A DNA stretch of 64,000 nt from Dictyostelium discoideum (Eukaryota). The notes under the pieces are model-generated. The model did no database searches. It was given only the letters and a program-made list of their open reading frames with translations, and was not told where the DNA came from. The stretch's first letter is position 1. The number at the start of each line of letters is the position of its first letter. The stretch spans positions 5,344,001 to 5,408,000 of the forward strand of contig CM000151.3 in the NCBI GenBank assembly GCA_000004695.1, read 5' to 3'. Shown here one piece after another: positions 8,310-9,644 of the stretch. The translations under genes and the position numbers were made by a program.

Positions 8310-9644
8310 ATGTCAAAAACCAATCAAAATTTAACAATAGATAAAGTAATAGATAATAATAATAATATTTATTTGTTAAAATTATTAATGATTGGTGGAG
8401 ATGTCTGCTCAAAAAATGGTATATCAATGGTTGAAAAATTTTTAAAACATGATAAAAATTTAATTCAAGTTTTTGATGATTATGATTCAACTGATGAATA
8501 TATTAATTTTAAAATGAAATTAAATGAATTTAGTTCTATTGATACAAGTAATAGCATAAACAATGGTATTATTTATTCAGAAAATAATAAAAATAAAAAT
8601 AATAATAATAATTATAATTATAATAATAATAATTATAATAATAATAATAATAATAATAATAATAATAATAATAATAATAATAATAATAATAATAATAATA
8701 ATAATAATAATAATTCAAATTTTAAAATTCAAATTCAAATAAAAGATTTATCAGATTGTTATTGCGATTTAAAAATTCAAACGATACCAAGTTGTTTCTA
8801 TAGAGGAATTCATGGTTTTATAATTGTTTATGATATAAATGATCATATAGCATACAATAATATACCAAAATGGATAGAAGAAATAAATTCATTTTCAATG
8901 AAAAACTCAAAAATAATAGTAGTTTGTAATGATTCAAATTCAAAAACACCAAATTTTTCAGATTCTTCATCTTCTTCCTCTTCATCATCATCATCAAATA
9001 TAATACCACTAAACAAAAATACTAAAAATAAAGTGGTTGGGGGTGTTGGTGTTGACCCAATACTGGCAAATAAATTATTTCAATCTTTATCAATACCACA
9101 TTTTATTGTTTCAGTTGATACAAATGAAAATATAAAGATGGCATTTAATTCTTTAAAAACTTTAATTTTTGAAAATAATCCTTTATTTCAATTTTTCAAA
9201 CTACAAGGAGATGATAATAATAATAATAATAATAATAATAATAATAATAATAATAATAATAATAATAATAATAATAATAATAATAATAATAATAATAATT
9301 TAAATTATTTAAATAATTTAAATAATTTAAATAATTTAAATAATGAAAATAATATAAACAATAATAGTTTAAATAATAATAATAATAATAATAATAATAA
9401 TAATAATAATAATAATAATAATAATAATAATAATAATAATAATAATAATAATAATAATAATAATAATAATAATAATAATAATAATAATAATAATACTTAT
9501 AATAACGATTTAAAAACAAATAAAAAATCCCTTGAAATAAAAAAACATAATTCAAATATTGAAAAAAAAGAAGTAAAACAAAATATAAAAGATAAAAAAA
9601 ATAAAAATAAAAATAAAAATGCATGCACATGTAATTTAATGTGA
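8310..9644 (+). CDS. Ras-superfamily small-GTPase-like protein with degenerate nucleotide-binding motifs (predicted pseudo-GTPase) and C-terminal CAAX box (CNLM)
   Basis: Single 444-codon ORF, ATG at 8310, TGA at 9642-9644. It aligns by eye to Rab/Ras: LLKLLMIGGDVCSKNG at the P-loop position (GxxxxGK[ST] not conserved). LKIQTIPSCFYRGIHGFIIVYDINDHIAYNNIPKWIEEINSF matches the switch II/G3 region (DTAGQE replaced by QTIPSC, YRGAHG-like retained). KIIVVCNDSN lies at the NKxD position. It ends ...ACTCNLM, a prenylation box. Two very long (AAT)n-encoded poly-Asn inserts are present. Confidence 0.7.
   Translation: MSKTNQNLTIDKVIDNNNNIYLLKLLMIGGDVCSKNGISMVEKFLKHDKNLIQVFDDYDSTDEYINFKMKLNEFSSIDTSNSINNGIIYSENNKNKNNNNNYNYNNNNYNNNNNNNNNNNNNNNNNNNNNNNNNNSNFKIQIQIKDLSDCYCDLKIQTIPSCFYRGIHGFIIVYDINDHIAYNNIPKWIEEINSFSMKNSKIIVVCNDSNSKTPNFSDSSSSSSSSSSSNIIPLNKNTKNKVVGGVGVDPILANKLFQSLSIPHFIVSVDTNENIKMAFNSLKTLIFENNPLFQFFKLQGDDNNNNNNNNNNNNNNNNNNNNNNNNNNNNLNYLNNLNNLNNLNNENNINNNSLNNNNNNNNNNNNNNNNNNNNNNNNNNNNNNNNNNNNNNNNNTYNNDLKTNKKSLEIKKHNSNIEKKEVKQNIKDKKNKNKNKNACTCNLM

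What the first reader, a model, noticed from the sequence alone, without database searches (positions are those of the whole stretch)
8310..9644. Rab/Ras-like protein with all GTP-binding motifs degenerate but a preserved CAAX box: predicted membrane-anchored pseudo-GTPase
The ORF keeps the overall small-GTPase scaffold: a beta1/P-loop position, switch II-like YRGIHGFIIVYD, and the spacing to the NKxD position. But it replaces GxxxxGK[ST] with GGDVCSKNG, DTAGQE with QTIPSC, and NKxD with CNDS. It ends in the farnesylation-type box CNLM. Two ~40-residue poly-Asn insertions interrupt the fold. A prenylated small-GTPase-like protein that probably cannot bind or hydrolyse GTP would be a scaffold or regulator rather than a switch. 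It is worth comparing with known Dictyostelium Rab-like/pseudo-GTPases.
Basis: partly seen in the sequence, partly recalled or inferred. Interest (0 to 1): 0.55.

Follow-up and report, generated by a model that had tools for sequence, protein, structure and literature searches.

The report
Lipid-anchored Rab-like pseudo-GTPase in Dictyostelium
This is a real, evolutionarily maintained Dictyostelium gene for a Rab-type small G protein that has lost every canonical GTP-binding motif but keeps a conserved lipid-anchor signal, so it probably works as a fixed membrane-tethered adaptor rather than a molecular switch.

Summary
The 444-codon ORF at 8310..9644 (+) is real. It scores as Pfam Ras (E 4e-11) and its closest solved relatives are Rab1, Rab3, Sec4 and Rab11. 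No hidden exon restores the canonical motifs. All five G motifs are non-canonical: G1 GGDVCSKN, no fixed switch-I Thr, G3 D-L-S-(DCY)-C-D, G4 NDSN, G5 SVD.

Only one poly-Asn tract lies inside the fold; the second, about 93 residues, is in the C-terminal linker.

I found positional orthologues in D. citrinum and D. firmibasis through the neighbouring ADGF gene. They share the degenerate motifs, and both have lost the P-loop lysine (GGDV[F/L]SNN). The G domain is nevertheless under purifying selection (dN/dS 0.17-0.26, bootstrap CI below 0.42). The C-terminus C-x-C-N-L-M is invariant, while the rest of the tail evolves almost neutrally.

The pseudo-GTPase reading is therefore supported. The gene is probably dictyBase rabX, but I could not verify this. 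It is a new member of a known kind (pseudoGTPases; lineage-restricted Rab expansions). Nucleotide binding, lipidation and function remain untested. Interest is moderate.

The parts
8310..9644 (+). Single-exon gene for a 444-aa Rab-derived protein (stop codon at 9642-9644).
   Evidence: ORF listing. Pfam Ras. The identical 444-aa product is a called gene in NCBI assembly GCA_054883475.1. Single-exon orthologues of 415 and 456 aa sit at the syntenic position in D. citrinum and D. firmibasis.
8370..8420 (+). Beta1 strand plus P-loop remnant, residues 21-37 (YLLKLLMIGGDVCSKNG). GxxxxGK[ST] has become G29-GDVC-S34-K35-N36.
   Evidence: Aligns to Rab YLFKLLLIGDSGVGKS. The orthologues read GGDVFSNN and GGDVLSNN, so the Lys is not conserved.
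8472..8531 (+). Switch I / beta2 remnant, residues 55-74 (FDDYDSTDEYINFKMKLNEF). There is no conserved G2 threonine.
   Evidence: The candidate Thr61 is T, S or G in the three species. INFKMKL aligns to Rab VDFKIRT. AF2 confidence is low in this stretch.
8583..8714 (+). Poly-Asn insertion 1, residues 92-135, in the beta2-beta3 hairpin loop.
   Evidence: Translation. The position is shared by the orthologues but the length varies.
8721..8771 (+). Beta3 plus G3 remnant, residues 138-154 (FKIQIQIKDLSDCYCDL). D146 (or D149) is kept; the Gly and Gln of DxxGQ are absent.
   Evidence: Profile alignment to Rab1 gives IKLQIWDTA---GQE against IKIQIKDLSDCYCDL. The AF2 strand spans residues 138-147.
8772..8843 (+). 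Switch II / alpha2 / beta4, residues 155-178 (KIQTIPSCFYRGIHGFIIVYDIND). These are recognisable RabF3-F5 motifs and the most conserved block.
   Evidence: Aligns to Rab1 [24 protein letters not shown]. Nearly invariant among the three orthologues.
8913..8942 (+). Beta5 plus G4 remnant, residues 202-211 (IIVVCNDSNS). NKxD has become N207-D-S-N210.
   Evidence: Aligns to Rab LLVGNKSDLT. The orthologues read NNSN.
8943..9035 (+). Ser-rich loop insertion after G4, residues 212-242.
   Evidence: No counterpart in Rab1. pLDDT is below 50. Length varies among the orthologues.
9036..9206 (+). Alpha4-beta6-G5 remnant-alpha5, residues 243-299. SAK has become S268-V-D270 (9111-9119). Includes an invariant VGGVGVDP segment.
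   Evidence: Aligns to Rab1 residues 132-173. Invariant HFIVSVDTNENI in all three species. AF2 helices and strand have pLDDT 66-79.
9216..9494 (+). Asn-rich linker, residues 303-395, C-terminal to the G domain and not inside the fold.
   Evidence: Translation. Length and sequence vary among the orthologues.
9495..9623 (+). Lys-rich tail, residues 396-438.
   Evidence: The last 29-30 residues carry net charge +6, +6 and +4 in the three species. Evolves almost neutrally, omega 0.5-1.0.
9624..9641 (+). C-terminal C439-T-C441-N-L-M444: a CaaX box (X = Met) with a second Cys two residues upstream.
   Evidence: C[T/S/A]CNLM is invariant in the three species, although tail identity is only 34-53%.

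Best explanation
The ORF encodes a Rab-derived pseudoGTPase restricted to the D. discoideum / D. citrinum / D. firmibasis clade.

Shown:
- It is a single-exon gene kept open in three species.
- Its G domain is under purifying selection.
- It is closest to Rab1-type Rabs.
- All five nucleotide-binding motifs are non-canonical in all three species, and the P-loop Lys is present only in D. discoideum.
- A C-x-C-N-L-M terminus is invariant at the end of a long, fast-evolving, Asn/Lys-rich linker.

Inferred:
- The domain no longer binds or hydrolyses GTP. Walker-A Lys, the Mg-coordinating Ser/Thr, the gamma-phosphate Gly, the catalytic Gln, and the NKxD Lys and Asp are all missing. It therefore cannot act as a GDP/GTP switch.
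- The CaaX box with X = Met is farnesylated, followed by aaX proteolysis and methylation. The conserved upstream Cys and the basic residues supply a second membrane signal.
- The protein therefore sits on a membrane on a linker of about 140 residues. It uses its conserved surface (the frozen switch II / alpha2-beta4 / alpha3 block and the alpha4-alpha5 face) as a constitutive, nucleotide-independent binding module for an unknown partner.
- A plausible further step concerns the route of lipidation. Extending a Rab CXC end to CxC-aaX would make lipidation independent of REP/RabGGTase, which would no longer recognise a Rab without nucleotide or intact RabF1/F2 motifs.
For: Family and fold:
- Pfam Ras matches the D. 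discoideum protein at E 4.2e-11 and the orthologues at 4e-11 and 2e-10.
- In the PDB, the single sequence hits Rab1A/B at about E 1e-12 and the three-orthologue profile at about 2e-14. Three collinear pieces cover beta1/P-loop, beta3-G4 and alpha4-alpha5.
- Bit scores are Rab1B 48.8 and a Rab11-like protein 37.5, against Ran 10.8, H-Ras 7.1 and RhoA 3.9.
- AlphaFold2 with a Rab alignment gives pTM 0.61 with the expected order of strands and helices. Foldseek top hits are Rab1b, Rab11 and Rab3, with target TM about 0.74.

Motif loss:
- The degenerate forms are conserved across the orthologues: GGDV[C/F/L]S[K/N/N]N, N[D/N/N]SN, SVD and D.YCD.
- No alternative exon carries canonical motifs.

Selection:
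- NG86 dN/dS over 230 G-domain codons is 0.26, 0.19 and 0.17 for the three pairs. Bootstrap 95% CIs span 0.10-0.42, and 0 of 1000 replicates reach 1.
- Neighbouring controls: ADGF 0.07-0.08; orphan ORF at 4199, 0.27-0.30.
- In a neutral-mutation simulation, fewer than 1% of ORFs stay intact after 0.1 mutation events per site.

Anchor:
- C.CNLM is invariant while the tail has omega 0.5-1.0 and 34-53% identity.
- Net basic charge of the tail is +4 to +6.

Established knowledge: CaaX with X = M, S, Q or A is an FTase substrate (K-Ras4B CVIM, lamin B CAIM, Rnd3 CTVM).
Against: - Nothing biochemical was tested. Nucleotide binding, prenylation, localisation and partners are all inferred.
- The AF2 model is only moderately confident (mean pLDDT 58.9) and was steered by a Rab alignment. 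The single-sequence model is uninformative (pLDDT 33).
- Loss of conserved residues is not significantly concentrated at nucleotide-contact positions. 5 of 19 contact columns are kept against 13 of 29 other conserved columns (Fisher p = 0.24 for identity, 0.08 for similarity). The protein is diverged throughout rather than surgically inactivated.
- D. discoideum retains the P-loop Lys, the G3 Asp, the G4 Asn and the G5 Ser, so weak or unusual nucleotide binding in this species is not excluded.
- The Rab effector hydrophobic triad is not kept (Trp to Lys145; Tyr to F/L/Q163). This leaves the binding surface undefined.
- I saw no expression data for this exact locus.
Confidence: 0.6

Rival explanations
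1. A natural decoy or dominant-negative. The nucleotide-free-like Rab domain carries Asn at the P-loop Ser/Thr position, as in the engineered S17N/S22N mutants. It could permanently engage a Rab regulator (GEF, GDI/REP or GAP) or an effector of its parent Rab. That would titrate the regulator, or recruit it to the membrane where the anchor places the protein. This is a specific version of the main explanation.
For: - N36 at the Ser/Thr position is invariant in all three species.
- The RabF3-F5 block, which in Rabs contacts REP/GDI, GEFs and effectors, is the best conserved part.
- Established knowledge: nucleotide-free small GTPases bind their GEFs tightly.
Against: - Switch I (RabF1) and the beta3 Trp (RabF2) are needed for most GEF, GDI and effector contacts. 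Both are lost or variable.
- The parent Rab is not identified.
- No interaction data exist.
Confidence: 0.15
2. Still a working nucleotide-dependent switch that uses non-canonical motifs. It might bind another nucleotide (the D-to-N change at NKxD recalls xanthine-nucleotide specificity) or be constitutively GTP-bound like Rnd/RhoH.
For: - D. discoideum keeps G29, K35, a G3 Asp, N207 and S268.
- Established knowledge: Ras D119N and Rab D-to-N mutants switch to XTP.
- Farnesylated, non-hydrolysing Rnd proteins exist.
Against: - The Walker-A Lys is Asn in both orthologues.
- The Mg-binding Ser/Thr is Asn in all three.
- The second P-loop Gly is Ser.
- The G4 Lys is Asp or Asn, and the G5 Lys is Asp.
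- The N-terminal third, holding the P-loop and switch I, evolves fastest within the domain: omega 0.23-0.43 against 0.11-0.34 for the other two G-domain blocks.
Confidence: 0.1
3. A functionless, decaying product of the large species-specific Rab amplification in Dictyostelium, whose reading frame merely happens to be intact.
For: - Forbes et al. 2021 (PMC8923023) report that 68% of dictyostelid small GTPases are unique to one species, and that some amplified genes are poorly or not expressed.
- Divergence is spread over the whole domain.
- No orthologue lies at the syntenic D. purpureum locus.
Against: - The frame is intact in three species, with dS of 0.37-0.93 between them.
- G-domain omega is 0.17-0.26, with no bootstrap replicate reaching 1.
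- The CxCNLM terminus is invariant within a near-neutral tail.
- Simulation shows an unconstrained ORF would be broken after about 0.1 mutation events per site.
Confidence: 0.05

Closest known systems
Canonical Rab GTPases of the Rab1/Ypt1 group (also Rab3/Sec4, Rab35, Rab11)
   Same: - Same G-domain fold and order of elements.
- Recognisable RabF3-F5 motifs: KIQTIP, FYRGI and IVYDIN against RFRTIT, YYRGA and VVYDVT.
- The alpha3 Trp is kept.
- These are the best sequence and fold matches.
- A long C-terminal linker ends in lipidatable cysteines.
   Different: - All five G motifs are non-canonical.
- RabF1 and the beta3 Trp are lost, and the hydrophobic triad is not kept.
- There are three low-complexity loop insertions.
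- The linker is about 140 residues instead of 30-40.
- The terminus is CxC-NLM (CaaX type) rather than CC or CXC.
Class i pseudoGTPases as defined by Stiegler and Boggon 2020: for example CENP-M, the p190RhoGAP pG1/pG2 domains, and the microsporidian Arf-family ArlEM (PMC13393502)
   Same: The G-domain fold is retained under selection while the nucleotide-binding motifs are mutated. The predicted role is a protein-interaction module rather than a switch.
   Different: - This protein derives from the Rab family.
- It is a stand-alone small protein with a conserved lipid-anchor signal.
- It is restricted to a few closely related Dictyostelium species.
- Absence of nucleotide binding has not been shown here.
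Atypical farnesylated Rho proteins (Rnd1-3, RhoH)
   Same: Small G proteins that do not cycle. They are anchored by a CaaX box ending in Met (Rnd3 CTVM) and are regulated by means other than GEFs and GAPs.
   Different: Rnd and RhoH keep intact G1, G4 and G5 and are constitutively GTP-bound. Here the binding motifs themselves are gone. They also belong to a different family (Rho, not Rab).
Ras-type C-terminal membrane anchors (K-Ras4B polybasic + CVIM; H-Ras Cys181/184 + CVLS)
   Same: A CaaX box with an FTase-type X residue, a Lys-rich stretch and an upstream Cys. This is the two-signal arrangement.
   Different: Here the arrangement sits on a Rab-derived domain. The upstream Cys is at position -2 relative to the CaaX Cys, so after aaX removal the end would read CxC, like a Rab.
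Species-restricted Rab paralogues of D. discoideum (rabR, rabS, rabT1/2, rabU, rabX ...; Forbes et al. 2021, PMC8923023)
   Same: Part of the same lineage-specific Rab amplification. The gene is probably rabX (DDB_G0275327), which is listed with no orthologue in D. purpureum, D. lacteum, P. pallidum or D. fasciculatum.
   Different: I found no statement in the papers read that this gene lacks functional GTP-binding motifs or carries a conserved CaaX end. The identity with rabX is inferred from gene-ID neighbourhood only.

Membership tests
Ras superfamily small G domain (Pfam PF00071) | Significant match to the family profile above the curated cut-off. | tested here: met
   43.1 bits against a cut-off of 21.6, E 4.2e-11, profile positions 55-159 of 162. 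The orthologues score 43.2 and 41.0 bits.
Ras superfamily small G domain (Pfam PF00071) | The alpha/beta G-domain fold, with beta1-alpha1 ... beta6-alpha5 in order. | tested here: inconclusive
   The alignment-guided AF2 model has the expected elements. It matches Rab structures at target TM about 0.74 and Foldseek E 1e-10. But mean pLDDT is 58.9, the alignment was made of Rabs, and the single-sequence model failed.
Rab family | Closest relatives are Rabs rather than Ras, Rho, Ran or Arf. | tested here: met
   All 60 listed PDB hits are Rab, Ypt or Sec4. Bit scores are Rab1B 48.8 against Ran 10.8, H-Ras 7.1 and RhoA 3.9.
Rab family | The five RabF motifs: IGVDF, KLQIWDTAGQE, RFRSIT, YYRGA and LVYDIT. 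| tested here: inconclusive
   F3-F5 are recognisable (KIQTIP, FYRGI, IVYDIN). F1 is replaced by YINFK/YINIK. F2 is reduced to KIQIKD, without the Trp or TAGQE.
Rab family | C-terminal CC, CXC or CCXX(X) double-cysteine geranylgeranylation motif. | tested here: not met
   The terminus is C-T-C-N-L-M: CxC followed by three residues, i.e. CaaX type.
Functional (switching) small GTPase | G1 motif GxxxxGK[ST]. | tested here: not met
   GGDVCSKN in D. discoideum; GGDVFSNN and GGDVLSNN in the orthologues.
Functional (switching) small GTPase | The G2 switch-I Thr and the G3 motif DxxG(Q). | tested here: not met
   The candidate Thr61 is T, S or G across species. G3 has Asp but neither Gly nor Gln (D-L-S-DCY-C-D).
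Functional (switching) small GTPase | G4 motif [NT]KxD and G5 motif SA[KL]. | tested here: not met
   G4 is NDSN or NNSN, and G5 is SVD, in all three species.
PseudoGTPase (class i, nucleotide-free) | G-domain homology together with experimentally absent nucleotide binding. | not testable with these tools
   Homology is shown. Absence of binding is only predicted from the motif losses.
PseudoGTPase (class i, nucleotide-free) | Maintained by selection, i.e. not a pseudogene. | tested here: met
   omega 0.17-0.26, bootstrap CI 0.10-0.42. Open frames in three species.
CaaX prenylation substrates | Cys at position -4 from the C-terminus, aliphatic a2, and X = M/S/Q/A for FTase. | tested here: met
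   C441-N-L-M444, invariant in the three species. The rule for X comes from established knowledge.
CaaX prenylation substrates | Actual farnesylation, aaX cleavage and methylation, and membrane association. | not testable with these tools
   Needs metabolic labelling, mass spectrometry, and localisation of the C441S mutant.
dictyBase gene rabX (DDB_G0275327) | Sequence identity with the annotated rabX product. | not testable with these tools
   The evidence is indirect:
- The window holds DDB_G0275339.
- It holds an ATG16 gene (atg16 = DDB_G0275323).
- It holds an ARID gene (ariA = DDB_G0275333).
- It holds a TBC RabGAP gene (DDB_G0275345 is a RabGAP).
- This ORF is the only Rab-like sequence in the window.

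The AX4 record itself could not be retrieved.

The most novel reading that the evidence does not exclude
A Rab that lost nucleotide binding escaped dependence on REP/RabGGTase by extending its CXC end to CxC-NLM, becoming an FTase substrate. After aaX removal it would regenerate a Rab-like CxC-OMe terminus. It now acts as a lineage-specific, constitutively membrane-bound Rab mimic that scaffolds or titrates trafficking factors. This would be a stand-alone, lipid-anchored pseudoGTPase of Rab origin, and none is known to me (own knowledge; not systematically checked here).
Probability: 0.25. Interest if true: 0.55.

Novelty: new member of a known kind. Interest (0 to 1): 0.4.

Why it matters
PseudoGTPases are a small, recently defined class. 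Most known examples are domains inside larger proteins, or GTP-locked Rho proteins.

This candidate is a free-standing, lipid-anchored, Rab-derived example in a genetically tractable organism. It has sister-species orthologues showing that selection maintains the dead motifs and the anchor.

It offers a clean test of two questions: what a Rab fold can do without its nucleotide, and how membrane targeting is kept once REP-dependent prenylation is no longer available.

It also shows that at least one member of the large species-restricted Rab expansion in Dictyostelium is neither a canonical switch nor junk. That bears on how the roughly 70 annotated 'Rab GTPases' of this organism are counted and interpreted.

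The practical weight is modest. The gene is restricted to a narrow clade and its function is unknown.

Tried and rejected
1. Protein database searches for orthologues.
- The exact-sequence look-up failed.
- The word-index search gave one weak Rab11-like hit.
- The exhaustive HMMER search of 1.84 billion representatives gave only generic Rabs and tandem-Rab fusion calls at about 30% identity.
- These negatives were misleading. Orthologues exist in NCBI assemblies and were reached only through the neighbouring ADGF gene.

2. The weak hit P0001 is not a positional orthologue. Its neighbours are a Sec7 protein and a kinase, on a 20% GC contig.

3. AF2 without an alignment was uninformative (pLDDT 33). 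The first MAFFT alignment, with the poly-Asn tract left in, misaligned the P-loop. I therefore modelled a construct with the repeats removed.

4. I tested whether lost residues are enriched at nucleotide-contact positions. The result was not significant.

5. Hidden exon or intron hypothesis: no canonical G1 or G3 motif lies in any frame within about 2 kb, and the only [NT][KQ]xD matches are surrounded by stop codons.

6. Naming the gene.
- There are no literature hits for DDB_G0275327.
- dictyBase IDs in the window are not in positional order.
- Look-ups for the AX4 record returned nothing.
- rabX therefore remains an inference. rab_ps2 (DDB_G0275101) was considered, but is less likely on ID neighbourhood and because the frame is intact.

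7. D. purpureum: the ADGF locus is not syntenic and has no Rab-like hit.

8. The pseudoGTPase review (PMC7544640) and the Amoebozoa Rab phylogeny (PMC9707542) are not held.
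Full report
**Source and locus.**
The window has 21.7% GC. One of its ORFs (47099..48406) is identical to 'hypothetical protein DDB_G0275339 [Dictyostelium discoideum AX4]', carried on an 8.48-Mb contig. The window is therefore D. discoideum chromosome 2.

The finding lies between several genes:
- an actin gene
- the adenosine-deaminase-related growth factor gene (Pfam A_deaminase_N and A_deaminase; adgf = DDB_G0275179 according to PMC12711200)
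- an orphan 637-aa ORF on one side
- an orphan gene and an eIF4G-like gene (MIF4G and MA3 domains) on the other side

**The observation.**
Coordinates 8310..9644 (+) hold an uninterrupted 444-codon ORF. In this genome that is not chance. Intergenic frames carry a stop every 12 codons or so (frequency 0.082). This gives P about 1e-11 for the 295 non-repeat codons, and the other five frames of the ORF carry 11-162 stops.

Family assignment is clear:
- The protein scores above the Pfam Ras gathering threshold (43.1 against 21.6 bits, E 4.2e-11).
- Its best solved relatives are Rab1A/B (E about 1e-12), followed by Rab3, Sec4, Ypt1 and Rab11.
- Rab1B scores 48.8 bits, against 10.8 for Ran, 7.1 for H-Ras and 3.9 for RhoA.
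- A profile of the three orthologues aligns to Rab1 in three collinear pieces: beta1/P-loop, beta3 to G4, and alpha4 to alpha5.
- An AlphaFold2 model built with a Rab alignment has the expected succession of strands and helices (pTM 0.61, mean pLDDT 58.9). It matches Rab1b, Rab11 and Rab3 structures at target TM about 0.74.
- That model is partly circular. The single-sequence model was useless (pLDDT 33).

**Motifs.**

| Motif | Canonical | This protein |
|---|---|---|
| G1 | GxxxxGK[ST] | G29-GDVC-S34-K35-N36 |
| G2 | switch-I Thr | No secure equivalent; Thr61 is one residue out of register |
| G3 | DxxGQ | D146-L-S-(DCY)-C152-D153 in the profile alignment, or D149-C-Y-C152-D153 ungapped; no Gly or Gln in either |
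| G4 | NKxD | N207-D-S-N210 |
| G5 | SAK | S268-V-D270 |

Its G3 assignment is wrong, because QTIPSC is the RabF3 position (RTITSS). Its G4 assignment is one residue out.

Of the poly-Asn tracts, only the first (residues 92-135) interrupts the fold, in the beta2-beta3 loop. The second (303-395) lies in the C-terminal linker. A Ser-rich insertion (212-242) follows G4.

No canonical G1 or G3 motif exists in any frame within about 2 kb. The only [NT][KQ]xD matches are surrounded by stop codons, so an overlooked intron does not restore the motifs.

**Orthologues.**
Direct protein searches found none. Searching with the neighbouring ADGF protein returned D. citrinum and D. firmibasis proteins at 92% and 90% identity.

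Their loci show the same gene order: actin, ADGF, orphan, then a single-exon gene of 415 aa (L003:16162-17409) or 456 aa (L004:16125-17495). These are 78% and 74% identical to the D. discoideum protein, and both hit Pfam Ras.

The identical 444-aa product is also a called gene in another D. discoideum assembly. That locus is 99.4% identical to the window. The D. purpureum ADGF locus is not syntenic and has no Rab-like sequence.

**What the orthologues show.**
1. The degenerate motifs are shared. The losses therefore predate the split of the three species.
   - G1 is GGDVFSNN and GGDVLSNN, so the Walker-A Lys is Asn in both sister species.
   - The Thr61 position is Ser or Gly.
   - G3 is D-I-S-D-C-Y-C-D and D-L-C-D-H-Y-C-D.
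   - G4 is NNSN.
   - G5 is SVD.
2. The core is strongly conserved: KIQTIPSC.YRGIHGFIIVYDINDH, NNIP.WI.EIN.FSMKN, IIVVCN.SNS and VGGVGVDP.LANKLF.SLSIPHFIVSVDTNENI.
3. The C-terminus C[T/S/A]CNLM is invariant.

**Selection.**
Nei-Gojobori dN/dS over 230 aligned G-domain codons, repeats excluded, is 0.26, 0.19 and 0.17 for the three pairs, with dS of 0.37-0.93. Bootstrap 95% intervals span 0.10-0.42, and no replicate reaches 1.

The N-terminal third, which holds the P-loop and switch I, is the least constrained part of the domain: omega 0.23-0.43, against 0.11-0.34 for the other two G-domain blocks (residues 136-217 and 230-302). The tail (396-444) has omega 0.5-1.0 and 34-53% identity, apart from its invariant last six residues.

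Controls from the same loci: ADGF 0.07-0.08, and the orphan ORF at 4199, 0.27-0.30. A simple neutral simulation leaves fewer than 1% of ORFs intact after 0.1 mutation events per site. The gene is therefore maintained as a protein, although its nucleotide-binding residues are gone.

**A caveat.**
The protein is diverged throughout. Of the columns at least 80% conserved in a set of about 90 Rabs plus H-Ras, it keeps 5 of 19 nucleotide-contact positions and 13 of 29 others. The difference is not significant (p = 0.24).

The Rab hydrophobic triad is not kept: Trp has become Lys145, and Tyr is F, L or Q at position 163. Binding of classical Rab effectors, REP or GDI cannot be assumed.

**Mechanism (inference).**
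Several essential residues are missing:
- the Walker-A Lys, in two of the three species
- the Mg-coordinating Ser/Thr
- the gamma-phosphate Gly
- the catalytic Gln
- the NKxD Lys and Asp
- the G5 Lys

Without these, the domain is unlikely to bind guanine nucleotide, and it cannot hydrolyse GTP or switch.

The invariant CaaX box with X = Met is the farnesyltransferase type. This is established knowledge from K-Ras4B CVIM, lamin B CAIM and Rnd3 CTVM. The conserved Cys two residues upstream and the net positive tail (+4 to +6) would supply a second membrane signal.

The most likely picture is a G-domain-shaped interaction module held at a membrane on a disordered linker of about 140 residues, acting independently of nucleotide. 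Canonical Rabs end in CC or CXC and need REP, which recognises the folded nucleotide-bound Rab. The CxC-NLM end therefore looks like a derived solution that keeps lipidation after the loss of Rab identity. After aaX removal the end would again read CxC.

A decoy or dominant-negative role towards regulators of the parent Rab is a specific variant of this picture. It is hinted at by the invariant Asn at the Ser/Thr position, but the degenerate switch I weakens it.

**Relation to what is known.**
Forbes et al. 2021 (PMC8923023) count 74 Rab-Ran genes in D. discoideum. They report that 68% of dictyostelid small GTPases are unique to one species, and that some are poorly expressed.

Their Table S1 lists rabX (DDB_G0275327) with no orthologue in the four other species studied. 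Gene IDs established for this window cluster around that number:
- DDB_G0275339
- atg16 = DDB_G0275323
- ariA ARID = DDB_G0275333
- a TBC RabGAP, with DDB_G0275345 listed among the RabGAPs

This ORF is the only Rab-like sequence in the window. It is therefore probably rabX, but I could not verify that.

If it is rabX, two further observations apply. A microarray study recorded mild down-regulation on Pseudomonas (log2 -0.59 and -0.76, PMC2474670). It was also absent from the ten organelle-pulldown columns of Forbes' Table S3.

I found no statement in the papers read that this gene is a pseudoGTPase. PseudoGTPases are a recognised class; a recent example is the microsporidian ArlEM (PMC13393502).

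**Verdict.**
The feature is a new member of a known kind. Interest is moderate (0.4). The pseudo-GTPase candidate is solid and conserved, it has a clear experimental path, and it sits in a model organism. But it is confined to a narrow clade and has no known function.

Noticed in passing
window 9036-9059 (residues 243-250, VVGGVGVD): An invariant GGVG insertion sits in the loop before alpha4. It resembles the Ras P-loop core GGVGKS but lies in the wrong place. It is conserved in all three species. Its meaning is unknown.
   Followed up: no
window 8310-8370 (residues 1-20); P0001/P0152 N-termini: The N-terminal extension MSKTNQNLTIDKV resembles that of a Rab11-like group from AT-rich eukaryote contigs (MNSNNQTLSIKEV...). 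That group also has VVCGNKCD where this protein has VVCNDSN. This could hint at the parent lineage. However, Rab1 scores higher overall, and the P0001 locus is not syntenic.
   Followed up: partly
protein searches: The D. citrinum and D. firmibasis orthologues, and the identical D. discoideum product, exist as called genes in NCBI assemblies. Neither protein search returned them, although neighbouring genes from the same assemblies are in the database. Look-ups for the AX4 record also returned nothing. Absence in those searches is therefore not evidence of absence.
   Followed up: partly
window 23034-25214, 41395-46751, 53156-54682, 62064-62795: The window is rich in membrane-traffic genes: a Uso1/p115 head-domain protein, a VPS9-domain (Rab5-GEF type) protein, a TBC RabGAP and ATG16. 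This is probably coincidental. No link to the Rab-like gene was tested.
   Followed up: no
window 4199-6112 (+): An orphan 637-aa Asn-rich ORF with no Pfam hit. It is conserved as 667 and 657 aa genes in D. citrinum and D. firmibasis, with dN/dS of 0.27-0.30. It is a real gene of unknown function.
   Followed up: partly
about window 13.6-14.3 kb (+), corresponding to L006:15296-15992: A gene with a 185-aa product is called in the other D. discoideum assembly. Genes with 185-aa products sit at the matching positions in D. citrinum and D. firmibasis. No Pfam family is on record, and I did not examine it.
   Followed up: no
window 49905-51542 (-): A 545-aa ORF matches a bacterial-type periplasmic phosphonate-binding domain (PF12974, E 1e-10). 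That is unusual for a eukaryote, and I did not pursue it.
   Followed up: no
window 8757-8765, 8793-8795, 8925-8927 (C150, C152, C162, C206): Cysteines replace the G3 Gly position (C152) and the Gly before NKxD (C206). Together with C162 they are invariant in the three species; C150 is His in D. firmibasis. Whether they cluster in the former nucleotide pocket could not be checked.
   Followed up: no
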